Origin: Eledone cirrhosa
Lineage: Eukaryota
Length of the DNA: 64,000 nucleotides
NCBI GenBank assembly: GCA_964016885.1
Contig: OZ024742.1
Span: 202,492,001-202,556,000 of the forward strand
Direction: 5' to 3'
The notes under the pieces: model-generated
Databases searched by the model: none
What the model was told of the DNA's origin: nothing
Seen by the model: only the letters and a program-made list of their open reading frames with translations
Program-made: the position numbers and the translations under genes
Shown here: piece after piece, positions 15,536-53,792 of the stretch
How positions within the stretch are numbered: the stretch's first letter is position 1
Layout: every line of letters begins with the position of its first letter

Positions 15536-15822
<287 letters not shown>

Positions 15823-20169: not shown

Positions 20170-20370
20170 GGAAAATGTATGACCCCAACGGCAGAGCTCA
20201 AGCCATTTCGACGGCTATTTCTGGACTAAATTTAGTCTAGAAATAGCCGTCGAAACCGCTTGAGCCCTGCCGTCGGGGTCATACATTTTCCTATTACCCA
20301 CTCTACTACCCAAAGTATTGAGTACACTGGTGCGCTATGTCCATCTGGTTTCTTACTACAACTCCTTCGC
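20170..20370 (+). mobile_element. Hairpin-plus-tail element, family H1, copy 2
   Basis: Arms GGAAAATGTATGACCCC...GGGGTCATACATTTTCC, then tail TATTACCCACTCTACTACCCAAAGTATTGAGTAC. Follows (TA)n. Confidence 0.85.
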
Positions 20371-23279: not shown

Positions 23280-23281
<2 letters not shown>

Positions 23282-23478
23282 AACCAGTAAGACCCCGACA
23301 GCTGAGCTCAAGCCGTTTCGACGGCTAATTCTGGACTAATGAGTCCAGAATTAGCCGTCGAAACGGCTTGAGCTAAGCTGTCGGGGTCTTACTGGTTCCT
23401 ATTACCCACTCTACTACCTCAAGTATTGAGTACTTGGGTGCGTTATGGTCCACCTGGTTCCTTACCACATTTCCTTCG

Positions 23479-23479
<1 letters not shown>
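23280..23479 (+). mobile_element. Hairpin-plus-tail element, family H1, copy 3
   Basis: Near-perfect ~58-bp arms around loop AATG (~23338-23341), then the tail. (TA)n on both sides. Confidence 0.88.
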
Positions 23480-26477: not shown

Positions 26478-26668
26478 GGTACAAGTATGACCCCGACGGC
26501 AGAGCTCAAGCCGTTTCGACGGATAATTCTGTCCAGAAATAGCCGTCGAAACTGCTTGAGCTCTGCCATCGGGGTCATACTTGTTCCTATTGCTCACTCT
26601 GCTACCTTAAGTATTGAGTACTTTGGTGCGTTATGGTCCATCTGGTTCCTTACCACATTTCCTTGGTT
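26478..26668 (+). mobile_element. Hairpin-plus-tail element, family H1, copy 4
   Basis: Arms GGTACAAGTATGACCCC...GGGGTCATACTTGTTCC plus the homologous tail. Confidence 0.85.
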
Positions 26669-29185: not shown

Positions 29186-32100
29186 ATATATATATATATA
29201 TATCTGCGGGGCTGAGACCGGGAAGACCGCATCTCTTTCTAACAAGATGGAATAGATAAAATAGGAAAAGAAAGACGAGGAGCTACAGAGAGAAAAAAAC
29301 AAATAGTCATTGAGGATGTCTCAGAATGTATAACGAAAGTGATTAACGAACTAACCAAGAACTAATAATAATACACCGAAATTAAAGTCAATTAGTACAT
29401 CCATTTATTTGTTGGCATATATATATATATGTATTATAGAGAGTCAGTAGTCGACAGCTGAGTTCATGCCGTTCCAACAGCTAGTTGAAACGCCAGGAGT
29501 TTAGCTGTTGAGTCCAGACACTTTCTAAAATATACTCTACTACCCCAAGCATCGAGTACTCTGTTGAGTAATGGTCTAACTAGTTTTAAACTGGTTCTTT
29601 CTTTCTTTATTCATATATAAGCAGAAGACCATCCGTTGTGACTGGGTCTTGGCTACAAAGATTGCTGGATCGAATCATGCCGGTTGTGGTTTGAAGTTAG
29701 AGCACTTCGTGGCTGCTTTGTGTCTACAGAAAATTGTTTGCTCTATTTTGTTGTTAAGCAGTATTTTATTATACTTTAAAATATGGAGCAGCTCCATATT
29801 GCACAGTCCGCAGTGGGACATTCCTCTTTTGTAGGCCCTTGCACTCGATAACTTCGACCACATAATCTCATATTCCTGGTTGATGTCCTTAAGCTGCCAG
29901 ATCTTATTGACCATCGTCATTGTTTTTTTCCAGTCTACGGTTTTTTATGCACATACCATCTTTTTTTTAAATCTGCAGCTGTAGAACCTATGTAGTGCCA
30001 TGCTAGGTTGCCAGATTTTAGAGTACACAGGTACACTATACATGATTCCAGGCATCTATTTTGTAGTGGGCATTTATCTGGCAGGTGGCAGTTACATTTG
30101 GAGGCCTTCCTGTGTGTAGGTTCTCCGTTGCGGTATTGTATGTTGTTAGTGATGGGCTGAGATTTAGGTTTGGTGATGTTTTGTTGCGATGTGCCCTGAC
30201 ATATGGGTGGTTGTGATGTTGTTATGTGTTTGCGTTTTGTATTTGGTGCTATGGTGTGTGTTGGTAGATTTCTTTCCTTGGAGATTCTTTTATAGTTGAT
30301 TTTATGTATGTGTGATTCTATGTTGGCTGCAGTAGAGTAAGAGAGTTTAATAGTTTTTCTGTTAAAGATTCTATGGTATTTGTGTAGTTTAGGGAAGTGT
30401 TTGTCAATTAGTTTAAATAATATAGAAGGTAAGTTGTTTTTTATAGAAGAGTTGAAGATTGGATTGAACCATAAATATTTCCTATCTCTGGATTTTCTGG
30501 AGTTTCTCGGGGTCCTTATATTAGTGTTCGGTTCGGCTATTTCTCGTGCTCTTTGCTTATTTCTGAAAAACTGAAAATATCCGATAGAACCGAGCCTCTA
30601 ATCCCTTGTAACCACACATTTAACCTAAAAGATCATAAAAATAATTTCGAAACAGACTCCACAATTAGATTAATATGCCCATCGAAGTCAGATATAGGTA
30701 GAATTAGCAAGTATATACTAGATAGAGTTATAGCGCAGATCAAGGACAAACTACAAATTAAGCTATGGGGTAACACTAATGAAGCAATAGATTGGTTTAA
30801 CAAAATAGACGGTAGGAAAGCATCCAACTTCATACAGTTCGATATCAACGACTACTACTTATCCATCTCCCCAGTCACCCTAAATAAAGCGCTCAACTTC
30901 GCCCGGAAAAATTCAGACCTAACCTCGGATGAAATTAGAATAATACTAGCTGCTAGGAGAACTATCATTAGATTCGAAAATAGTTACTGGGAACGAAAAA
31001 ACAAACAGAATAGCTTTGATATTACAATGGGATCTAACGACTCAGCACAAGTAACTGACATAGTTGGAATATATAGATTGCATAACTTACATAAGGAATT
31101 TAGTAATCTCCAAGGAGGAATTTATAGAGACGACACGCTCCTTTTAGCTAAAAACATGAATAATCAAAGCATGGAAAGATTACGGAAAAACATTAGAGTC
31201 TTCTTCAATAGACTAAGCCTAGGTATTACTTCCTAACTTAACTCTAAAAAAGCAAACTTCTTAGATGTAACACTCAACCTAAACACAGGATTAATAGAGC
31301 CTTTCCATAAAAATAACAAGAATTTAGCCTACATTAGTTATAACTCAACCCACCCTCGCTCCATAATTAACTCGATAGCATATAGTATATCCCTTAGAAT
31401 ATCCCGCTTATATTCTAATTTAGAGATGTTCAATGAACACGCAAATTAATATAACATAGCTTTACATAAGGCAGGCCACAAGGAAGGGCTCAAATACATA
31501 CCCGATAGAGACAGCAACTACAAACCTAACGACAACTACTCTACCCGCAACTATAGGAATAACAAATATAGAACTAAACATAGAAATAAGCAAAGAGCAC
31601 GCGAAATAGCCGAACCGAACACTAATATAAGGACCCCGAGAAACTCCAGAAAATCCTGAGGTAGGAAATATTTATGGTTCAATCCAATCTTCAACTCTTC
31701 TATAAAAACCAACTTACCTTCTATATTCTTTAAACTAATTGACAAACACTTCCCTAAACTACACAAATACCATAGAATCTTTAACAAAAAATATATTAAA
31801 GTCTCTTACTCTACTGCAGCCAACATAGAATCACACATACATAAAACCAACTATAAAAGAATCTCCAAGGAAAGTAATCTACCAACATACACCATAGCAC
31901 CAAATACAAAACGCAAACACATAACAACATCACAACCACCCACACGTCAGGGCACATCGCAACAAAACATCACCAAACCTAAATCTCAGCCCATCACTAA
32001 CAACATACAATACCGCAACGGAGAACCTGCACACAGGAAGGCCTCCAAATGTAACTGCCACCTGCCGAATAAATGCCCACTACAAAATAGATGCCTGGAA

Positions 32101-33761: not shown

Positions 33762-33979
33762 TTTCTGAATTTGTTTAGCAAGATTCTTTATCTGAAATCG
33801 TGTGTTGAAACCGATATTGTTATACTTTGGGAGGGTCATGTTGCCAATAAGAAACACACGCACCAGTTGCTTTCACTTCAATTTATTATATATTTATAAA
33901 TTTATAAATTTACAAATTTACAAACCTATAAATTTCTGGTTGGTTGGTTGGTTCCACAACCAGATAGTTGTTTATATAT

Positions 33980-34024
33980 AGTCATAGTCCTTTCGTCACA
34001 CACTCTGTGACCTCTTCAGTGACT
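33980..34024 (-). ncRNA. Minimal type I hammerhead ribozyme motif in the PLE pLTR
   Basis: AGTCA-CTGAAGA-G-GTCACA gagtg TGTGAC-GAAA-G ga C-TA-TGACT. 5-bp stem I, 6-bp stem II, CUA triplet. Confidence 0.82.
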
Positions 34025-34196
34025 GGGGATTCCTTTCTTTGTTTCTGTGCCTTTCCTTTCTTCTATCCTACGCCAATTTGTTTCTGTGTGTGTGTTGTCT
34101 GCTCAGTTTGCGCATGCGCCACATCCGGGTGTCTGTGTGTGTTTGTGTTCATTTATCTATTTGTTTATTTATTTATTTATTTATTGTTGGTTGGTC

Positions 34197-34410
34197 GTTT
34201 GTTCTATGTGTGTGTGTGTTTTCATTTTGTCCTGTGTGTGTTTTCATTTTGTCCTTAATTGTAAGTTGTTTGTTCTATGTGTGTGTGTGTTTTCATTTTG
34301 TCCTGTGTGTGTTTTCATTTTGTCCTTAATTGTAAGTTGTTTGTTCTATGTGTGTGTGTGTTTTCATTTTGTCCTGTGTGTGTTTTCATTTTGTCCTTAA
34401 TTGTAAGTTG
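34197..34410. repeat. Three tandem ~71-bp units in the PLE 3' UTR
   Basis: TTGTTCTATGTGTGTGTGTGTTTTCATTTTGTCC...TTAATTGTAAGTTGT is repeated. Confidence 0.9.
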
Positions 34411-35485
34411 TGATGTTGCTGTTCCACTCATATTTTCTATTTAATTTTGGTTTTAATTCTTTTATGCTTACTGCCTCTGTAATTTGCCTAAACATTGCGC
34501 CTTTTCTGTGTGTGGATTCTATTTTTATTTCTATGTTCTCTAATCTACCCCTGTGTTCTATCTTAGCATGCTGGTAGAGCACAGATGATTCTTTATTATC
34601 TTGAAGGTCTCGCCAGTGTTCATTTATTCGTTCCCCTATAATACGAGCTGTCTCACCTATGTACACTATATTTTTGTTTCTACATTGTCCTTCAGTACAT
34701 CTTATGCTATACACTACATTTCTAGTTTTACAGTTAATATGGGGGCTTATTTTACAGGTTATACATTTCTTATCTATACATGAGGGTCTTTGGAACGGGT
34801 ATGTCTTGCTAATAAGTGTTTTTACGGAGGTACCTGGTCTTTCTACTATCTTAATATTGAGATTATGTTTATTTAGGGCCCTTCTAAATTTGTAGGCTAG
34901 TTCGCCTCTAGGGGTTGTATTGATGAACATTACACTCTGGTATTTATTGCTATCATACCATGAGTTTATTCTATTGGCCTTGTTCTTAGTTCTTTCTATT
35001 CTATTCCAAAATTTGCTCCTATACAAGGGGCAGATCCCATTTATGTCATTATTTACCATTTTTTCCCATTTGGTTCTGGCTCCTTTATACACTCTGATTC
35101 TATCTCTCTGATTGTAGCCAGAGAACTGCATACGGTGGATGAAGTGTTGTATGTGTCTCTCTAGTTCTTCGGGGTTGCACATGCGGGACACATTTCTCAT
35201 CACCCGTACCAAATCCGCAATCAGTATGTTGATTTTGGTATGGTCCGAAATGGCCGAGTTTCGGTGGATCAGATGTTTGGAAGTCATGGGTTTGGCATAA
35301 TGGGAATGGAGGATTTGGTTTTGGTTGTTAATGGTATCTAACCAGAGCTCTGTGTCTAGTACAGGTAATCGATGGTTGGGGTGTCTACTTGGGTAGTCTA
35401 TAGTAACTCTAATGCTCTGGTGGATGGAGATTGCTATTTGCTGGATGCTTTCCATTGTGTTTTTCTCTAGTTCCTGACTGTTCTT
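34397..35485 (-). CDS. PLE polyprotein C-terminal part (RT thumb, Zn linker, GIY-YIG endonuclease), open but 5'-truncated
   Basis: LPVLD, KPMTS..HRNSA, MQFSGY, CIDKKCITC, CKTRNVVYSIRC, YIGETAR..ERINEH, RQITEAV, LNRKYEW. The first residues of the track ORF come from the inverted pLTR. Confidence 0.85.
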   Translation of the reverse strand, partial: KNSQELEKNTMESIQQIAISIHQSIRVTIDYPSRHPNHRLPVLDTELWLDTINNQNQILHSHYAKPMTSKHLIHRNSAISDHTKINILIADLVRVMRNVSRMCNPEELERHIQHFIHRMQFSGYNQRDRIRVYKGARTKWEKMVNNDINGICPLYRSKFWNRIERTKNKANRINSWYDSNKYQSVMFINTTPRGELAYKFRRALNKHNLNIKIVERPGTSVKTLISKTYPFQRPSCIDKKCITCKISPHINCKTRNVVYSIRCTEGQCRNKNIVYIGETARIIGERINEHWRDLQDNKESSVLYQHAKIEHRGRLENIEIKIESTHRKGAMFRQITEAVSIKELKPKLNRKYEWNSNITTYN

Positions 35486-35682
35486 TAGTGACGAAAGGAC
35501 TATGACTATATATAAACAACTATCTGGTTGTGGAACCAACCAACCAACCAGAAATTTATAGGTTTGTAAATTTGTAAATTTATAAATTTATAAATATATA
35601 ATAAATTGAAGTGAAAGCAACTGGTGCGTGTCTTTCTTATTGGCAACATGACCCTCCCAAAGTATAACAATATATATATATA

Positions 35683-36397
35683 TAGGTAAATATCTTTAAG
35701 TCATTTGGAAGCCTCGACAATGCAAATGGGTAAATCTCCGGGTAACAAGATCCGGTGGTGGAGAGAGAGATGTAAGTGGGTGTACGTTAAGATGCGTGGT
35801 GTGTATAAGACGTGTAGAAGAATGAAGGAAAGAGTATAAAGGATAAAATAAAAATAAGAACACGAGAGAGAGTTACCTTGGGAGAGATTTAATTGTCCCT
35901 ATATATTTCGGATTCACATCCATCAACTGGGGGTTTTTCCGGGGTGGGGGAAAGGTTGTCTGTCGGAAAGGTGCGAAACGCGTCCTCCGCTGTTTGTTGT
36001 TTTGAATATCTGAAGTATTCAGCAGAGCGCGCGTGCGCGTGAAATGGGGTCGGTCGGGCAGAGGTCAGCGGCCGAATGTGGGAGTGGGGTGGTGCTAGCT
36101 GTCAGATAGAATGTGACAGGTGCAACCAATACTATATAGGTAGCACAATCCGACCTGTGCACATCCGGATCAAGGAACACACTAAAACCAGGGCCTCGTC
36201 TTTCCGGAAACACATAGACAAATGCGGAAACAAAGACGGAAGGCCCATTGTTACAATTCTAGCGACTGAAAGAAACGTCGGCACGTTACGTATCAAGGAA
36301 CTGCTTTTTATCAAACGCCTTGCACCGCAAATAAACAATCGATCCGAGAGAAGCGAAATGAAGTGGCTGGTTTAAGTTAACAAACGATGCAGCAACA

Positions 36398-36445
<48 letters not shown>

Positions 36446-37065
36446 AGACAACTACACACGCACACGCACGCACACACAGTAGCATTCCACCATACGAACA
36501 TACTACACTGCCAATACAAAGGAACAAGGCAACAACACACACACACACACTCAAGCGAGACAACAACACACACACACACAGTAACATTTAACAAACAAGC
36601 AGAGAATGGACTGACAGCTAGCACCACCCCACTCCCACATTCGGCCGCTAACCTCTGCCCGACCGACCCCATTTCACGCGCACGCGCGCTCTGCTAAATA
36701 CCTCAGATATTCAAAACAACAAACAGCGGAGGACGCATTTCGCACCTTTCCGACAGACAACCTTTCTCCCACCCCGGAAAAAACCCCAGTTGATGCATGT
36801 GAATCCGAAATATATAGGGACAATTAAATCTCTCCCAAGGTAACTCTCTCTCGTGTTCTTATTTTAATTTTATCCTTTATACTCGTTCCTTCATTCTTCT
36901 ACACGTCTTATACACACCACGCATCTCAACGTACACCCACTTACATCTCTCTCTCCACCACCGGATCTTGTTACCCGGAGATTTACCCATTTGCATTGTC
37001 GAGGCTTCCAAACGACTTAAAGATATTTACCTATTATTCCACAATGCTTCAAGCAAACTTCAATA

Positions 37066-37201: not shown

Positions 37202-37247
37202 AGCTGACAATTGTTTCTTCCAGAGGGAAGTCTGGATTCATCGGAGC
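37202..37247 (-). ncRNA. Minimal hammerhead motif, CCGAUGA variant
   Basis: GCT-CCGATGA-A-TCCAGA cttccc TCTGGA-A-GAAA-C AATT G-TC-AGC. The mirror copy at ~44120-44160 has lost the GTC triplet. Confidence 0.7.
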
Positions 37248-38378
37248 ATAGGGAATGTCCCAAACGTGTAACTAGAATCCTAGTCGTTTAGAACATTTAG
37301 GGTACATAGTTGTTATTAGTGTCAAAGGCATCATGTGGAGATTCAGGAGTTAAAAAGATGTTCCGCTTGAAATAACGCAGTTACAGGCAGCACTGGTTGG
37401 AAGTGTAATAGGTATAAGTAAAAGCAAAAAGCACAAGCAGAGAAATCACAAGCGAAAAAACACAGGGAAAAAAGTTATAAGCAAGGACAATTGGTATACA
37501 ATGCAGGAGTCAATACAGTCAGTAATGCATGTATGAGAAAAGGGTTATAATGCAGTTGAAATAAACATATTTTGTGTGGGGTGTTAAAGCATATTATATT
37601 TGTTATAAACATTTAAGAAAGTGTGCAATTTGTTAGAGAGACGTGTGGTGATAATGTAGGTATGTTTATGTAAGGTGTAATGTAAATCACTAGATAGAGT
37701 TGGGTATGTGATTTTCATTTAAGTGTTTTTGTGTTGTAGTTCGTATTTATGTGCATGTGTTGTTTGTAACTCACAGCTATTAACCATGGGATTATTTTAA
37801 GTCTTTTATAGTCAATAGGTGTTTGTTTGTTAAATGTAAATTCCTCCGAATTACTGGCCATGTTTATTGTAGGTATATTATCATTTTTATCTGTAAAATA
37901 TATTTTCTAAGGTTTGTATTAACCGTTATTAAGCTGTTGGTAAACCGTTAGATTACTTAATTTTATAAGTTTACACAGGAAGTTGTAAAGGGGGTTAATA
38001 ACAAACGGAGGTAAATAATGTTGTTGATAAATTAAGGGTTGTTATAATATTGTGGTAGTGTTATAAATTAACCTATATAGAGTGTATAAAATATAAAATA
38101 TAAAATATTCTTGGTTATATAATTGCTATGTTTTAAACTTGTGTGTGCGGGGGGGGGGGGAGTTAAAAACGTTTTTTAAAAATTTAGTTTATTATAACTA
38201 GATAGTTTTTACATAGTATATGCATGCATAATATAAGGCATATACATAAGTGTGACAATGTATAAACATATATACACACACACACATATCTGCACGCACA
38301 CTTATACACACATATATACACACACACACACACGCGCGTATACATATATATATATAAACACATATACACACACTTATA

Positions 38379-38426
<48 letters not shown>

Positions 38427-41331
38427 TACATGCAAACATACTGATTGTGTAGAGATAGTTGAAGTTTTTTTATAACAGGATAGGTTGCATAATATATACT
38501 GGAGTAATTGGAGTTATATTCACAGTTGTTGTGAATTGTGAATTTATTAGGGTGTCTATATCCTTTAAATCATTTCATCGTATAATGTAAGAAATCAAAC
38601 AGGTGTTTATTGACTGTATGTAGGTCAGTGTGGACTTTTAATTAAAGTGTAGTCCTATATTCATGAAGGCCTAGTTGGATAGATGAAGGTCTAGTTGGAT
38701 AAATGAAGGTCTAGTTGGATAAACTACAAGGTGGTGGTCTAGTGTTATCTCCGACATTGTTCTTTATTTTTATTTTTATTATTATTAGTTGCTCGGTTTG
38801 AAGTAGTGGAACGAGAATCTATGGTAATGCGGACACGTGTAGAAGATCTCTGATTTCCTATTTAGTAGGCTAAGGTTAGAGTGAATAATATTTTTAGACT
38901 CGAGGATGTAAAGGTTACAAAATTTGTTAGGTCGTTTATATGAAGGGGCCTTAGCTATCAATTCACATTTTAAGTATGGTATATTACTTGATTTTAATGA
39001 GTGTATGTATGTGGATATTGAGGCTACGTTGCTAAGTTTAGGGTTCTGAACAAATGAAGGTATGAATTATATCTGGTCTTAAAGCTATTCGATGTACAGC
39101 CTATATATACTTTCGAGATGTGATAGGCGGTTACAGTACCGGAGTAGACAATGTCTTTAATTAGGCAGTTCTTATTTAATGAACATGTCTTGTTAGGCCT
39201 ACAGTTACAATTGTTTTGTTTACTAGTATACTGGTTAAGGGTGTGTGCATTTGAGTGGTTGTTTCTCTTTCTACTTCTAGTATTATGATTATGGTGAGTG
39301 TTATTACTATTTGTATTATTAGTATGACTTGTATGGTCTTGTACTGTATTGTTGTTCAGGTTATTTCTGTGCTGGACATTATTACTTTAGTGTAGTTTGA
39401 AGTAATTTTCAATCTTTCTCTTGTTGGTGCTGGCTATATGGTCTGCTATGTTAGATGTGGTGGAGTAGGATATTTTAATTGTGTTTTCGTTAAATAGGTT
39501 GTGGTGTTTATGGTTAGTTGGGAAGTTTTTGTCTAGAGTAGAGAAGAAAGCTTTAGGTATGTTTGTTGATACATTTAAGTTGAACGAAGGGTTTAAAAAT
39601 GTGCTACTTCTTCTTCTATTCTTCCTATGGTTGTTATTCATACTACTGTTTAGTGTCGTGTTAGGTTCCTTCATATTCTATATTTTTCTTTCTGTGGTGT
39701 TTCTTAGGGTTATTGTGATTTAACTTTTTTTATGGCGTCTTTTGTACAGGAGTCTGGATTTTCAATACTACGATCATATTTACTTTTATTCAGGCCATGT
39801 CGTGTGAAATTATATTAGGTTGTTTATGGGTGGTTGACGATTTAGGTTTAAATTTAATTTTACTCTATGGCCGGAACGGGCTAATGCTTCATTATAGTAT
39901 TGGGAGTTACGATTAAATGTATTCTCGTTGTAAGAAAGGCTAGAAATTCTATTGGATACCCCTTTAATGATTGAGGTCAGTACAGATTTAGGGTGGTTAG
40001 AGTTGATTTTAACATGCCAAGGTTTTTCATTAGGTTTATGGTAAGGTGTGTATTTTTTAGAGTCTAAGTAGAGAGTGACGTCCAGGAGGTTAACATTTTT
40101 GGTGTTTTTTATCTAAAGTGATACCTAAGTTATAATTTTAAAATATTTTATGTAATTGTTTCCTAGTTCTTTCTATATTGAACTTTTTATAGTCTAAGAG
40201 GAAGAGTGCGCCGTCACGATAGAGACCACAGTTGAGGTAAGGTAGGTTCTTGTGTATTTCATTTAAGAGAAATAGGCCGACTAAGTCGGTTACCTGTGCC
40301 GAGTCATTAGATCCCATGGTGATATCGAAGTTGTTGGGTGTATTCTTGCGGGTTCATAATTGGTCATCAAATTTAATTATTGTTTTCCTGGCCGCTAGGA
40401 TTATATCTACCTGGGATTTAGTGAGTTCACTATTGTTCATGGCCATTATTAGTGCTTTATTTAGGAGGATAGGTTAGATAGATTATAGTAGGAGTTTATA
40501 TAAAATTGGATGAATTTCTTATTATTATTTTCTTTAATACCATTAAACCATTCAATTACTTCACTAGTGTTTCCCCAGAGGTTAAAATGGATTTTTTGTT
40601 TAATTTGAGGGATTACCTTATCTAAGATTTTTTTTAGTAATGGTGCCAATGTCGGATCTGGATGGGAAAATAAGTCTAATTGAGGGGTTAGTATTGAAGT
40701 CATCCTTATGGTCTTTCAGAGAGAATCCTGGGGGATTAGGGGTGTACGGTTGAGTATCTCTCTCTAGTCCTAATTTACATATTAAACTGCGGGCTTCAAT
40801 ATTTATGTCATCCAGGTTTTTATGCGATATTTTTTTGTAGTTCCTATAAAGTTCTTTATATATAAATTCTCTATATGTATCATAATCAAGGGTATATATG
40901 TTTTTAGTTTTATCAGCTAGTACTAATATATTCTAATTTTTATTAAAGTGTTTTTATGGTGGAATTTAGGTTAGTTAGGAATTCTTCTTATTGTAGTATT
41001 TCTTGTACTTAATCCTTTTAACAAGTGACACAAGATCGTTTTCAAATGAGTCCAGTAAGATATTGTGTGGAGAGCTTTTATATATTTTGAAGCCGTATGT
41101 TTCAAGCGAAGGTGGATCTTGTTTTTTCGCAGCTCGGTTCCTATCGTAGTGGAAGGCCTTCCATCTAACACTTTTGATAAAAGAGTTGACACGATTAATC
41201 AATAGTTTTTCGTATGTATCCCTAGATGGAATGGGTATGTTCTTTAGCCACAAAGGAATATAGTCTTTGATCAACATACCGGTAATTTTATATGTCAGCT
41301 CTGTTAGAGGGAGCAGAATTAGTAATATTCA

Positions 41332-41568
41332 TATTTTTTAACCCTCCGTTCAACTTAAATGTATCAACAAACATACCTAAAGCTTTCTTCTCTACTCTAG
41401 ACAAAAACTTCCCAACTAACCATAAATACCACAACCTATTTAACGAAAACACAATTAAAATATCCTGCTCCACCACACCTAACATAGCAGACCATATAGC
41501 CAGCACCAACAAGAGAAAGATTCAAAAGTACTTCAAACTACACCAAAGTAATAATGTCCAGCATAGAA
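41332..41568 (+). repeat. Inverted duplicate of 39362-39599 at the 5' junction of Naiad B
   Basis: FFNPPFNLNVSTNIPKAFFSTLDKNFPTNHKYH is encoded on plus here and on minus at 39387-39600. Confidence 0.9.
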
Positions 41569-42027
41569 ATATTAGCTATCGTCAGCATCGTATACCTTCC
41601 TGTCAGATGGTTCAACGTTTGAAAGTATATACTTTCCTTATGCATATTAACGGCTGAGCAGCCTAATTTGCATATCGAGTGAGTTTAGTCGGCCGGGCAC
41701 ACCGAAAACGATAAATGGAATAGAATGAAACGAAATTTCATTTCTCACTCTTAGTACGGCACTTACTTAAATGTAAGTATCTATGTATGTATACGTACAT
41801 ACATATATGTATACAGACGTGCAGTAGTATGTATATATATACATACATGCACACATATATATGCACGTATCGGTTTACCGAACATTTATACATACATACT
41901 TACATATATATATATAAATATATACATATATGTATACAGACGTACAGTAGTATATACATACATACATGCACACATATATATATGCACATACCGGTTTACC
42001 GAACATACATACATACTTACATATATA

Positions 42028-42157
<130 letters not shown>

Positions 42158-42259
42158 TGTATATGTGTGTGTATATATATATATATATGTATTTATATGT
42201 ATGTATATATATGTATATATATATATATGTATATATATATATGTATATATATGTATATA

Positions 42260-42299
<40 letters not shown>

Positions 42300-42348
42300 T
42301 CCGGAGAAAATGTAGAAAAGATGAATATAATTTATACTCGTTGAGCAA

Positions 42349-42409
<61 letters not shown>

Positions 42410-42419
42410 ACGTCACCAG

Positions 42420-43013
42420 TTGGTGCTACTAGTAACATGTATCCCAGTACAATCTGTCCCATTTTCGGGTCGTTGGCGACTAAACCGGCAACCCCACCAA
42501 TGTTTCTTGGTGAGGAGGATGATTTTGTACATCCTGCAGGACTAAAAACAAAACCTGTCAAAGGGCAAAAGAGCTCTTAAGAGTCAATGGCCATCCAAAA
42601 TCACCGGGAGAGATGACCCCTTAGCCTTTGTCAAGGCAGAATTCTAGGAGAAGGAAAACTCTGATATAACACCTGCAACCCTGATGGTATCCAATGATGT
42701 TGTTTTGTTCTTCTTTTTGGTAAATATCATCTTCGTTAAGAGAGTGGGACTGGCTTTGTGCAGTGCCTTTGATCACTATAAAAGCTTCACAGCACAGGCA
42801 TTGCTTTATATCTGGAGATCTCTCTGCACTTGTCGTCACATGGTACCATGGGCCCAGCACTATGTGTCAATAATTGTCACAAGTGTAGTGTTTGTACCAG
42901 AGTTTTCAAGTAGCTGGTTGGACTAAAAAGTCACACTCGTTCAGCGCATCGGTAGGGTTTCTCCTACATGGATATAAAGGGTGGCCGTACTCGAAAACGA
43001 GTTGGCAGCCACC
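42420..43013. mobile_element. ~600-bp interspersed repeat (copies at 52993-53386 and 63669-64000)
   Basis: Three near-identical copies. Contains CTAGGAGAAGGAAAACTCTGATATAA, which resembles RTE-clade 5' UTRs from memory. No convincing ORF. Confidence 0.8.
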
Positions 43014-44318
43014 AAATGTATATGTGTGTGTGTGTATGCGTGTATAAGTGTGTGTGCAGATATGTGTGTTTGTGTATATATGTTTATACATTGTCACACA
43101 TATGTATATGCCTTGTATTATGCATGCATATACTATGTAATAAACTTTCTAGTTATAATAAACTAAATTTTTAAAAAACGTTTTCAACTCCCCCCCCCCC
43201 CCCACACACACACATACACAGGTTTAAAAGATAGCAATTATATAACCAAGAATATTTTATATTTTATATTTTATACACTCTATATAGATTAATTTATAAC
43301 ACTACCACAATATTATAACAACCCTTAATTTATCAACAACATTAATTACCTCCCTTTGTTATTAACCCCCTTTACAACTTCCTGTGTAAACTTATAAAAT
43401 TAATTAACCTAACGGTTTACCAACAGCTTAATAACGTTTAATACAAACCTTAGAAAAGTTATTTTACAGATAAAAAATGCATAAGATAATATACCTACAA
43501 TAACAACATGGCCAGTAATTCAGAGGAATTTACATTTAACAAACAAACACCTATTGACTATAAACGACTTAAAATAATCCCATGGTTAATAGCTGTGAGT
43601 TACCAACAATACATGCACATACATACGAACTACAACACAAAAACACGTAAATGAAAATCACATACCCGCATCTATCTAGTGATTTACATTACACCTTACA
43701 TAAAAAAAATACCTACATTATCACCACACGTCTCTCTAACAAATAGTACGTTATCTTAAATGTTTATAACAAATATAACATGCTTTAACACCCCACACAA
43801 AATATGTTTATTTCAACTGCATTATAACTCTTTTCTCATACATGCATTATTGACTGTATTGACTCCTGCATTGTATACCAATTTTCCTTGCTTATAACTT
43901 CTTTCGCTGTGTTTTTTTGCTTGTGATTTTTTTGTTTGTGCTTTTTGCTTTTACCTATTACACTTCCAACCAGTGCTGCCTGTAATTGTGTTATTTCAAG
44001 CGGAACATCTTTTTAACTCCTGAATCTCCACATGATGCCTTTGACACTAATAACAACTATGTACCCTAAATGTTCTAAACGACTAGGTTTCTAGTTACAC
44101 GTTTTCGACATTCCCTATTCTCCGATGAATCCAGACTTCCCTCTGGAAGAAACAATAAATGTTCTAAACTAAAATTTGAGCGTTTCAACACTTTGTATCT
44201 CGACTCTGTAAAACACTTGAAAATTTGCATTGAACCTTTTATCATAGCGGTAACCGGCTAGTACTTAGTACTACTCTACATATTTATAGTTATATCAAAC
44301 ATATAAATATAAATATTA

Positions 44319-45195: not shown

Positions 45196-45234
<39 letters not shown>

Positions 45235-45240
<6 letters not shown>

Positions 45241-45388
45241 ATTAAATAAATGGAAAACTATATTTATAAAACCATATCTATTTCATTATATATATTTCGG
45301 GGATATCATATTAACAATATGCTATGCCTTCATCAGACAAAATACAATATAAACAGTTTTATAGATAAATATATTCGACATACCGTAA
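45235..45388 (-). mobile_element. Single arm of family H2 with intact CTGATGA hammerhead core
   Basis: Matches 25504-25655. The minus strand reads TATTTTGT-CTGATGA-AGG..CCC-GAAA-TATATA-TA-ATGAAATA. Confidence 0.8.
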
Positions 45389-45714
45389 TAAACATCAACT
45401 TCATTTGAAGAGGTTCACTCTAGCAGTGAAAATACAGAGAGAAAGAAAGAGAGAGAGAAAAGAGGGAATAGGAAAGAAAGAAAGACAAAACGAAGAAAAG
45501 GAAGAAAAAGAAGAAAAAGAAAAAGAAGAAATGCATGGGACAAAATAGAGAGATGGAAAAATAGATAAAGCGAAGAGCTTCATGTAAAGAGACAGAAAGA
45601 GATATATATATATATAGAGAGAGAGAGGAAGTAGAGATAGATACATATATAAATATAGATATAGAAAAATTAGGTAGTGGGAGGTCATTTTGAGTAAGTG
45701 TATCAATGATGCAT

Positions 45715-46966: not shown

Positions 46967-48959
46967 CTACATTTTAAATTTAAATTTATATTTAAACGTT
47001 GAGTTTAATCTATGTTTGCAACAACTGAATAAATTTGTCCGTAGGTTAAGGGAATTTTTAGATTTTAGTATAAAGAATATCTCCTCTGCGCAGAGGTCAC
47101 ATGTCTCAGAGGATGAATTAAAAGGAATCCCTCTTGAGACTATATTCCAAGCCGTCGAATATCTAACGTTATCTAGCTTAAGTTGCCAGAGTACACCTGA
47201 TAGTGCCGTTGAAGATTTTTTATTTGGATCTGTGAAAGAATTCTTGTGGTTATTATAGCGAAGTTTAAATTCCGTCGATGTGGAACCGACGTAGTTAAAA
47301 GAATTAGAGTCAGTATTAACATTACAATTGTATACTATATTTTTAACTAAGCAGTTGTTATTTAACGGACATTTAGATCTATCTCTACAGTTACATTTGT
47401 TAACTTGTATATTATTTATGCTATTATCAGTAGGTTTTAAGTTCCTATTATTTATTCTATTAATATTTTGTGCTAAATTTTTGGTGGATGAGTAGGTTAA
47501 TTTAATTGTATGCCTATTGAAGATTGAGTGGTACCTATGTGTTCTAGGGAAGCGATTATCAAGAGCTTTGAAAAATAATTTAGCGATGTGGGTTTTAATG
47601 TTTAGTGAGAAAGGGGGGGCAAACCAAATTATGTTCCTAGTTCTATTTCTTTTTTGTCCTTTGGAATTATTGTAATGCTTTCTATTATAGTTGTTAATGT
47701 TGTTGCCGTCATTAAAAAAGTTGTTACTTTGTTTAGTTTGTTTATCATTATCTATGTACACAATCTTATCAGCATACCCTGCCCTAGCTAGTGCATCATT
47801 ATAGTATTGGGCCTTTTCGTCAAAAATCTTTCTATTCGACGAGATCCTAGAGATACGTTTTTGGACTGAGTTTACTATAGTGTTTTTGACAGATCTGGGG
47901 TGGTTAGAGTTAAAGTTGACATAGTTTAAGTTTTCATTCAACTTGTGAAAAGGATAGTGGAGACATGTGTTGAGATTTAATGTTATATCTAGGAAATTGA
48001 CTATTCTATGGTTGTTCTCAATTTCTATTTTAAGGTTAAAGTAATTAAAACATTTTGTAATTTGTTTACATTTTCTATTTAGTTCAGGGTTATTATTATT
48101 AATAAGTAAAAGCATGTCATCCCTATATAAACCTCCGGTAGTACCAGGTATTTTCCTATGTAGCGAATTGATTAAAAATAAGCCCACAAGGTCAGTTACC
48201 TGAGCTGAGTCGGAAGATCCCATAGTTATGTCAAAATTGCTATCTCTATCTGCTCTGGTCCATAATTTGTCATCAAATTCTATCAAAGTTTTCCTAGCCG
48301 ATAATATAATATGCATTTCTTTGCTAGTTAGGTCCGTATGTTTGAATGCGTAATTTAGTGCCTTATTTAGTAGACTAGGGGTAATAGAAGAATAATAGTT
48401 AGCTATATCAAGTTGAATAAACCTATTATTATTGTCATATTTAATTTGCCTAAACCACTCAACAACCTCTCCAGTTCCCCTCCACAAGCTCAGGTTAGAT
48501 ACATAATCCAAGTTCTTAATTTGCAGTATCACCCTGTCAAGAATGTTTTTGCTTAATTTGCCCAGGGCCGATTTTGAAGGTGCGATCAATCTAACTGGCA
48601 GGTCAATCTCAAAATTCCTCTTGTGGTCCTTCATATTGATCTTCGGTTTCCTGGGCACGAAAGGTTGTGTTCTGTTCTCAATTTCTAACTCATGCATTAT
48701 ACAAGATGCTTCAACATTCATTTTCTCAAGTTCGGTCTTATCTGCTACCTTGTATTTTTTCCTCAGCTCTTTCAGTATGAGGCCATTATACATGTCTTTC
48801 TGCACTCCATAGAGGTTGTTGGTCTTGTCAGATTTCACCAAGATCTTCTCAGTTTTCTCTAAGCTCTCAATGTTATCCTTAATGCCTTTCAGATATTCCT
48901 GGCCTTTAAAGTTTCTCTTGAATTTGACCCCTTGTATGATAGAAATTATATCGTTTTCA
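46967..48959 (-). CDS. Naiad-type PLE polyprotein (RT + Cys knuckle + GIY-YIG), open reading frame but 5'-truncated (family C)
   Basis: 624-aa ORF with SDKTNNLY, MKDHK, FIQLDI, TMGSSDSAQVTDLVG, LYRDD, NFLDI, SNHP, WFAPPFS, KCNCRDRSKCPL, YVGST, FKLRYNNH, CDLC, CKH. The frame extends upstream to ENDIISIIQGVKF near 48959. Confidence 0.93.
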
Positions 48960-49248
48960 GTACTTATATATATATATAAGTACTTTATATCGTTTTCAGT
49001 ACTTATATATATATATAAGTACTTTCACAACAATTAGTTCACCATTACCTTGTATGATAGAAATTATATCGTTTTCAGTACTTATATATATATATAAGTA
49101 CTTTCACAACAATTAGTTCACCATTACCTTGTATGATAGAAATTATATCGTTTTCAGTACTTATATATATATATAAGTACTTTATATCGTTTTCAGTACT
49201 TATATATATATATATAAGTACTTTCACAACAATTAGTTCACCATTACC
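48930..49248. repeat. Tandem reiteration of a chimeric junction unit (~78 bp, with ~39-bp subunits) containing GTACTT(AT)nAAGTAC hairpins
   Basis: CCTTGTATGATAGAAATTATATCGTTTTCAGTACTT..AAGTACTTTCACAACAATTAGTTCACCATTAC occurs three times. Confidence 0.9.
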
Positions 49249-49544
49249 CAGAACAATTGTTTCACCTTATTCGGATTTTTTTTTTCCACCGAACTGATTA
49301 TCCGAATAAAGTGAAACAATTGTTCTCGGTAATAGGGAACTAGCTGCCTTGGAACTGATCGATAGAGAAACATATGTAATATGTTAATAAATGTGATATT
49401 ATGCGACACTGAATCCTTGTTCTTTATTATATATATATATGCGCGCGCGTTTGTGCGCGTGTGTGTGAGTGTGTGTGTGTGGGGGGGGCGACTTCTGCAG
49501 TTTCCGTCTAGCGTATTTCGCACAAACCATTCGCCCATTCGTGG

Positions 49545-53562: not shown

Positions 53563-53792
53563 TAATATTAAATAAATGGAAACTATATCCCGCCGAGGTT
53601 GACTTTGCCTTTCATCCTTACGGGGTCGATAAAATAAAGTACCAGTAATGCACTGGGTATTTGCTGGCCTTGTGCCTAAAGTAGAAACAAGTATATTTAT
53701 AAAACCATATTTATTCTATTATATATATTTCAAGGGTACCAAAACTTTGGTGCACTTTCATCAGATAAAATACAAAGTTTGTTTTATAAATG
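53563..53792 (-). mobile_element. Family H2 arm with hammerhead (53712-53772), interrupted by a 5'-truncated SINE (53589-53691, plus strand)
   Basis: The minus strand reads TATTTTAT-CTGATGA-AAG..CTT-GAAA-TATATA-TA-ATAGAATA. The SINE splits GGAAACTATAT|TTATAAAACC with an apparent TATAT duplication. Confidence 0.8.

What the first reader, a model, noticed from the sequence alone, without database searches (positions are those of the whole stretch)
23280..23479. H1 family: a 200-bp hairpin built from half a hammerhead, folded back at the presumed stem II
Seen: four good copies (15649, 20170, 23280, 26478) and a decayed one (~29440-29610). The right arm reads GTC-GAAA-CGGCTT GAGCT AAGCTG-TC-GGGGTC, which is the hammerhead 3' half (GAAA, stem III, GUC triplet, stem I 3' strand). 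The CUGANGA half is absent and replaced by the reverse complement of the arm, and the symmetry centre lies just 5' of GAAA, where stem II would be. Copy-specific substitutions are largely mirrored in both arms (GGAAAATGTAT/ATACATTTTCC, GGAACCAGTAA/TTACTGGTTCC, GGTACAAGTAT/ATACTTGTTCC). Inference: the cDNA snaps back on the ribozyme stem II hairpin and self-primes second-strand synthesis, so the ribozyme fold would dictate the insertion structure. The inverted pLTR at 35487 also starts within a hammerhead stem II (GTGACGAAAGG), which fits.
Basis: partly seen in the sequence, partly recalled or inferred. Interest (0 to 1): 0.8.

Follow-up and report, generated by a model that had tools for sequence, protein, structure and literature searches.

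The report
Penelope retrotransposon head-to-head hairpin stubs
These 200-base hairpin repeats, present in thousands of copies, are short insertions of a Penelope-like retrotransposon, likely made when two DNA copies started on opposite strands each run off the start of the RNA and are joined head to head, which would explain the long-puzzling inverted ends of these elements.

Summary
The repeat is real: a 120-bp hairpin plus an 80-bp tail in (TA)n, with 26,783 exact tail-motif matches genome-wide. The proposed snap-back on stem II fails. The predicted junction has 0 matches, the tail-less arm often reaches further 5' (23 of 69 pairs), some arms do not overlap, and another family passes its stem II in 97 of 100 arms. 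Arms stop at an initiator-like TCATTTA motif in loop II (58 of 99 tail arms), and a second family stops at the same motif where it lies outside its ribozyme. Template jumps occur there and at the ribozyme cut site, where a second hairpin class is centred. Best reading: the enzyme primes both target strands, both cDNAs run to an RNA 5' end (likely the capped start site), and end joining fuses them. The arrangement is known; this copy-level evidence on how it forms was not found in print. No RNA data were available.

The parts
23280..23337 (-). Short (tail-less) arm: element positions +58 to +1 in reverse. Inferred cDNA primed on the top target strand at the near start site.
   Evidence: outer end at +61 (with 3-nt TA microhomology) in 63 of 69 pairs
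23338..23341 (.). Copy-specific junction (4 nt, not a contiguous piece of the parent). Inferred end-joining seam.
23342..23399 (+). Tail arm +1 to +58: end of loop II, stem II 3' strand (23353-23359), GAAA (23360-23363), palindromic stem III, GUC with the cut between 23382 and 23383, stem I 3' strand.
23400..23479 (+). 80-bp tail (+59 to +138) between the two inferred start sites. In the parent it runs on into the 5' part of the open frame.
15649..15822 (+). H1 copy; short arm ends near +19, tail arm near +6
20170..20370 (+). H1 copy of another subfamily; both arms reach about -3 to -4
26478..26667 (+). H1 copy; arms end near +5 and +2
29440..29610 (+). Decayed H1 copy, limits approximate
46967..49342 (-). 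Second Hydra-like PLE: open frame 41% identical to the H1 parent protein, preceded by a hairpin. Used as a cross-family control.
33814..35673 (-). Another PLE family (GIY-YIG, Neptune-like by recalled motifs) with inverted arms; holds the 35487 break. Used as a negative control.

Best explanation
H1 is the shortest insertion class of an autonomous Penelope-like retrotransposon with Hydra-clade motifs, likely formed when the enzyme nicks and primes both strands of a (TA)n target, each cDNA runs to the 5' end of the RNA, and the two ends are joined head to head. Shown: the parent, two fixed outer ends (+58/61 and +138), independent inner ends on the two arms, a pile-up of inner ends at -6 to +8, variable seams, and template jumps at +1 to +4 and at the ribozyme cut. 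Inferred: the outer ends are the two internal reverse-transcription start sites, as measured in vitro for another PLE. Inferred: the inner wall is the capped transcription start at an initiator-like TCATTTA motif, with a TATA-like motif 25-29 nt upstream, both inside hammerhead loop II. Such transcripts carry only the 3' half of the ribozyme and both start sites within 140 nt of the cap, so most cDNAs would be short strong-stop products. Inferred: host end joining, or the enzyme itself, fuses them. Longer templates give the kilobase inverted copies, and ribozyme-cut RNA gives a second hairpin class centred at the cut.
For: Parent: 3,543-bp tandem unit with an intact 786-codon frame and a full hammerhead. 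Two arms are independent: short arm further 5' by 4 nt or more in 23 of 69 pairs, tail arm in 15, within 3 nt in 31; no overlap in L197; either arm is the longer in kilobase copies, e.g. L122 and L130 against L123. Wall: 58 of 99 tail arms and 53 of 69 short arms end at -6 to +8; 1 tail arm ends at -49 to -7 and 6 read beyond. RNA-end signature: 11 same-strand jump junctions, 8 at +1 to +4 and 3 at +41/42; L208 holds +1..+254 twice in tandem. Second family: 10 of 30 arms end within -1 to +4 of the same motif, which there lies upstream of the core; none end at -10 to -32. Cut-site class: 144 hairpins; of the first 50, 13 have one extra A/T and 1 has G/C. At +1 the single extra base is C/G in 5 of 6, 3 of them clearly non-templated; Fisher p = 0.019 for those, 0.002 for all. 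In vitro precedent: PMC11167929.
Against: No RNA evidence for the start site. The -4 end also lies at the apex of a predicted extension of stem II, so a nuclease cut there fits this family. The cap signature rests on few junctions; most G at -1 can be explained by joining to the other arm, and the jump junctions show no cap G. Many arms end at +2 to +8, so trimming or later deletion blurs the wall. 30 of 99 tail copies had no scored inverted partner within the stretch examined. The initiator and TATA calls rest on recalled consensus motifs. The family-2 pattern could not capture arms ending inside its loop II. All positional samples come from the first part of contig C1.
Confidence: 0.68

Rival explanations
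1. Two cDNAs joined head to head as above, but the RNA end at -4/+1 is made by a nuclease cut at the tip of the extended stem II, or by an enzyme stall, not by transcription start.
For: The predicted fold puts an apical loop at -8 to -5, next to the wall. Cap evidence is thin.
Against: A second family stops at the same TCATTTA motif outside its ribozyme. The extra base differs between +1 (C/G) and the uncapped cut end (A/T). Jumps at +1 argue for a true end rather than a pause.
Confidence: 0.15
2. The short hairpins are secondary: longer inverted insertions collapsed by deletion at the palindrome centre, or H1 copies that re-propagate from their own hairpin RNA.
For: Long inverted copies exist. 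Palindrome centres are known to be unstable (recalled). Some centres recur.
Against: Deletion gives no reason for a wall at one motif in two families, for jumps at +1, or for a class at the cut site. One recurring centre occurs in several subfamilies (L060, L067, L174), so it arose independently. Private changes are never mirrored (0 of 44).
Confidence: 0.08
3. First reader's model, close to the self-priming idea in PMC3846280: one cDNA folds back on the stem II hairpin and primes its own second strand.
For: The centre lies within loop II, near a predicted apex. Arms share subfamily markers. Some centres are perfect palindromes.
Against: 0 matches for the predicted product (one pattern). Short arm longer in 23 of 69 pairs; non-overlapping arms; arms from different subfamilies in L077. 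Stem II of the 35487 family is passed in 97 of 100 arms.
Confidence: 0.04
4. An ordinary MITE moved by a cut-and-paste transposase.
For: Short, high-copy, fixed ends, TA target.
Against: The inverted repeat is not terminal; the centre varies per copy; every part maps to a retrotransposon with an intact frame.
Confidence: 0.01

Closest known systems
Hydra-clade C-terminal EN+ Penelope-like elements (Craig et al. 2021, PMC8557442; section 11 and passages read)
   Same: RWK-like (RWR), DKT, CxCx5C linker, CxxC and CxH motifs, hammerhead, (TA)n target.
   Different: Unit is 3.5 kb, not under 3 kb; at least 26,783 tail copies, mostly short stubs; no tree was built against named families.
Inverted 5'-truncated pLTR plus one-sided tail (PMC8557442 Fig. 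2 legend; PMC3846280 passages and Discussion read)
   Same: Head-to-head arms, tail on one side only, TATA- and initiator-like motifs in the pLTR.
   Different: Tail is 80 bp rather than 30-40. That paper reads the junction palindromes as self-priming on an antisense template; these copies argue for two cDNAs joined end to end.
Anole Poseidon PAc in vitro (Frangieh et al. 2024, PMC11167929; parts 1-2 of 4 read)
   Same: Both strands nicked and extended; two internal start sites define the tail; AT-rich target; uncut RNA is used.
   Different: They did not resolve how insertion is completed and found no reads ending at the ribozyme cut. Here a class of insertions ends at the cut.
PLE hammerheads (Cervera and de la Pena 2014, PMC4209133; passages read)
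   Same: U3-A8 core, long stem II, palindromic stem III, pairs on opposite strands.
   Different: Loop II is about 40 nt and appears to hold the promoter, so most copies keep only half the ribozyme.
L1 twin priming and retroviral minus-strand strong-stop DNA (recalled, no call)
   Same: Two primers on one target; cDNA that runs off the RNA 5' end and can jump.
   Different: Here both cDNAs usually copy the same 60 nt, giving a hairpin; there is no tRNA primer and no integrase.
Non-LTR retrozymes (10.64898/2026.07.22.740005; part 1 of 5 read)
   Same: Non-coding, PLE-derived, type I hammerhead sequence.
   Different: Retrozymes are tandem units with whole ribozymes; H1 is inverted, holds half a ribozyme and is likely a dead end.

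Membership tests
EN+ Penelope-like element | [quoted passage not shown] | tested here: inconclusive
   Intact frame with RT-like YRDD and a C-terminal Y..YIG-type motif read by eye. No Pfam or PDB hit. Atlas neighbours at 0.96-0.99 include GIY-YIG and RVT_1 clusters.
EN+ Penelope-like element | Tandem and inverted arrangements with pLTR and one-sided tail | tested here: met
EN+ Penelope-like element | Type I hammerhead in the pLTR | tested here: met
   Core, GAAA, GUC and stems I-III in parents. The fold energy is not better than shuffles (z = -0.5) and Rfam gave no hammerhead hit in the window, which holds only half copies of this family.
Hydra clade | DKT, RWK, CxCx5C linker, CxxC and CxH motifs | tested here: met
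   DKT, RWR (one change), linker and flanking motifs read in the translation against the description
Hydra clade | Insertion into (TA)n | tested here: met
Hydra clade | Generally shorter than 3 kb | tested here: not met
   3,543-bp unit; the source says 'generally', so this is a soft feature
Hydra clade | Groups with named Hydra families in an RT tree | not tested
   No reference sequences were fetched; supplements of PMC8557442 were not read
Active hammerhead ribozyme | Self-cleavage after GUC | not testable with these tools
   Indirect only: ends and jumps at +41/42
MITE | Terminal inverted repeats and an invariant interior | tested here: not met
Non-LTR retrozyme | Tandem units each with a whole hammerhead | tested here: not met
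   H1 copies are inverted half-ribozymes

The most novel reading that the evidence does not exclude
This Penelope-like element replicates through a retrovirus-like strong-stop and strand transfer. The start site inside loop II leaves the capped 5' end uncuttable, the whole hammerhead in the downstream repeat cuts the 3' end at +41, and the RNA is thus terminally redundant over +1..+41. Strong-stop cDNAs primed on both target strands would transfer to that 3' end to build the pseudo-LTR and tail. H1 hairpins are the failed transfers, and they map RNA start sites and in vivo ribozyme cuts from DNA alone.
Probability: 0.3. Interest if true: 0.82.

Novelty: new variant of a known kind. Interest (0 to 1): 0.62.

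Why it matters
How Penelope-like elements form their tandem and inverted structures is named as open in PMC8557442, and PMC11167929 leaves the steps after priming unvalidated. The standing proposal for the inverted junction is self-priming (PMC3846280). Thousands of short copies act as a record of single reactions. They favour two-strand priming with end joining, point to an RNA start inside the ribozyme, and give genomic footprints of hammerhead cutting. An intact, nearly identical tandem parent makes these points testable in vitro. Repeat annotators would likely mistake such stubs for MITEs or microRNA hairpins.

Tried and rejected
My first idea, that the centre is a remnant of the CUGAUGA core, was wrong: the 3 matches were junction artefacts and the true core lies at -43. 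A splice acceptor at +2/+3 was rejected because many arms keep parent letters -1 to -4. Rfam gave only sub-threshold microRNA-type hits for the hairpin. Sequencing runs: no RNA holder listed. Laying three contig sets gave no start or end information. Pfam and PDB searches of the parent protein found nothing. Target-site duplications are mostly hidden in (TA)n: 4 of 54 positional and 3 of 20 top-hit hairpins share a non-simple 14-mer between flanks, 0 in shuffled pairings; not all were inspected. Left-versus-right arm trees were not built; column-wise variant counts were used instead. Earlier scan notes: nothing found. Literature searches listed no paper with this analysis; the library lacks most subscription papers, and no supplements were read.

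Full report
Observation. The 23280 copy is a 58-bp arm, a 4-bp seam, the same 58 bp inverted, and an 80-bp tail, set in (TA)n. The hairpin is far beyond chance. The window lies in a 3.0-Gb assembly. A 24-mer from the tail has 26,783 exact matches and its reversed control has 0.

Parent. Among tail hits, a few continue upstream into a full type I hammerhead. A 21-mer just 5' of the core has 3,191 matches. In 29 of the 30 loci fetched the core reads UUGANAA, and in one it starts with C; this U3-A8 variant is described for PLE hammerheads in PMC4209133 (passages). Some older copies have C3 with A8. A tandem array holds a 3,543-bp unit with an intact 786-codon frame; of the two neighbouring units of equal length compared, one differs at 4 positions. 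The protein shows the Hydra-clade motifs listed in PMC8557442 section 11. Pfam and PDB gave no hit; Atlas neighbours include GIY-YIG and RT clusters. I number positions from +1, the A of AGTCC in loop II: core at -43, stem II 3' strand at +12, GAAA at +19, cut at +41/42, short end at +58, tail end at +138, ATG at +232.

Arm ends. I fetched the first 100 tail hits on contig C1; 99 remained after merging identical ones. 69 had a scored inverted partner, whose outer end is +61 (with a TA microhomology) in 63. Inner ends fall at -6 to +8 in 58 of 99 tail arms and 53 of 69 short arms. Only 1 tail arm ends at -49 to -7, and 6 read beyond -50. The short arm reaches at least 4 nt further 5' in 23 pairs, the tail arm in 15, and 31 are within 3 nt. 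In L197 the tail arm starts at +80, so the arms share nothing. Long copies are also head-to-head pairs truncated independently, with either arm the longer, and L124 has two short ends. Centres are diverse: 30 forms in 37. 2,914 hairpins have both arms reaching +1 with seams of up to 13 nt.

Mirroring. Private variants are mirrored in 0 of 44 cases, rare ones in 5 of 56 and common ones in 100 of 124 (88 usable of 96 hairpins, drawn from all loci held, so not a random sample). Both arms thus come from the same source subfamily at insertion and then decay separately. L077 differs at three linked markers between arms, which suggests two RNA templates in that event.

Test of snap-back. The parent RNA is predicted to extend stem II with an apex at -8 to -5, so a fold-back is conceivable. 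Its product would keep the apex; one pattern for it found 0 matches. A second strand copied from the tail-arm cDNA cannot be longer than it or disjoint from it, and one copied from the short-arm cDNA cannot gain the tail. The 35487 family reads through its stem II in 97 of 100 arms. The model is not supported.

What the wall is. Across all loci held at that point, 11 junctions join a segment starting near the front of the unit to a distant same-strand segment: 8 at +1 to +4 and 3 at +41/42. L208 repeats +1..+254 twice before the tail. Jumping at template ends is known for such enzymes (recalled), so both positions look like physical RNA ends. 144 hairpins of one subfamily are centred at the ribozyme cut. 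Of the first 50, 20 have no insert (ambiguous, because a CG microhomology lies there), 13 have one extra A/T, 1 has G/C, and 8 in all may pass the cut (counted by eye). At +1, single-base inserts among 50 hairpins are C/G in 5 and A/T in 1; 3 of the 5 cannot be templated. Adding C opposite a cap and A at a bare end is recalled RT behaviour; the contrast gives p = 0.019 on small numbers. Loop II holds TATTTAAA at -29 and TCATTTAG at -6 to +2, which match recalled TATA and initiator patterns; PMC3846280 and PMC2377424 place such promoters in pLTRs (passages). Against this, most G at -1 can come from the other arm and the jump junctions show no cap G.

Cross-family control. The window holds a second Hydra-like element (41% protein identity). 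Its parent has the same TCATTTA motif 12 nt upstream of a minimal hammerhead core. Of 30 arms, 10 end within -1 to +4 of the motif's A, 3 at +7 to +14, 2 at -9, none at -10 to -32, and 15 further up (two arms belong to one locus). The stop follows the motif, not the ribozyme. The search pattern could not see arms ending inside that family's loop II.

Mechanism. PMC11167929 showed that a PLE enzyme nicks and extends both strands, starts at two internal RNA sites that define the tail, and needs RNA downstream of them. In this family a transcript starting at -4/+1 would offer those sites only 60 and 140 nt from its 5' end. Both cDNAs would run off, gain a base or two, be trimmed, and be joined. 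Read-through RNA or jumps give long arms; only 310 copies show the tail running on into the body (one 23-mer). Shown: parent, ends, independence of arms, jumps. Inferred: priming on both strands in vivo, start site, cap, joining pathway. No RNA run was listed.

Novelty. The element kind and the inverted arrangement are known. Eight paper searches listed no report of a dominant strong-stop hairpin class, of a start site splitting a PLE hammerhead, or of insertions ending at the cut. The library is incomplete and supplements were not read. Verdict: new variant of a known kind, interest 0.62.

Noticed in passing
L117-L119 (G000:C1, about 91.489-91.493 Mb): The inner end of the long arm carries about 65 tandem copies of a 55-bp piece of the open frame (unit 1755-1812). 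Truncation at 1753-1755 recurs in L071 and L129. This could be reiterative copying by the enzyme or later satellite growth.
   Followed up: no
L037, L071, L126: Breakpoints recur at unit 2858-2863 in the 3' untranslated part, a possible RNA end or hotspot.
   Followed up: no
L208, L210, L212, L228, L230, L232, L234, L235: Jumps land at unit 203-358, suggesting short promoter-proximal RNAs as templates.
   Followed up: partly
window:25419-25886 and window:15847-16250: Long hairpins of another family with a whole hammerhead-like motif in the arms and the centre upstream of the core; a further copy at 45234-45415 and a related motif near 53764.
   Followed up: partly
L286, L287, L288, L292-L296: Many arms show 4-5 T before +1 where sampled parents have 3, possibly slippage at transcription start or at the template end.
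   Followed up: no
L042, L081, L224, L226: Some subfamilies carry C3 with A8, a core pairing expected to be inactive, yet they have copies.
   Followed up: no
window:7344-9362 and window:12096-14108: Two 91% identical 2-kb pieces within RT-coding LINE-like frames.
   Followed up: no
window:27812-32488, 35682-37034, 37210-44193: Several nested long inverted repeats, perhaps further head-to-head retroelement insertions.
   Followed up: no
L050, L016: Flank sequence of tens of bases is repeated on both sides of the insertion, consistent with nicks in separate TA tracts.
   Followed up: partly
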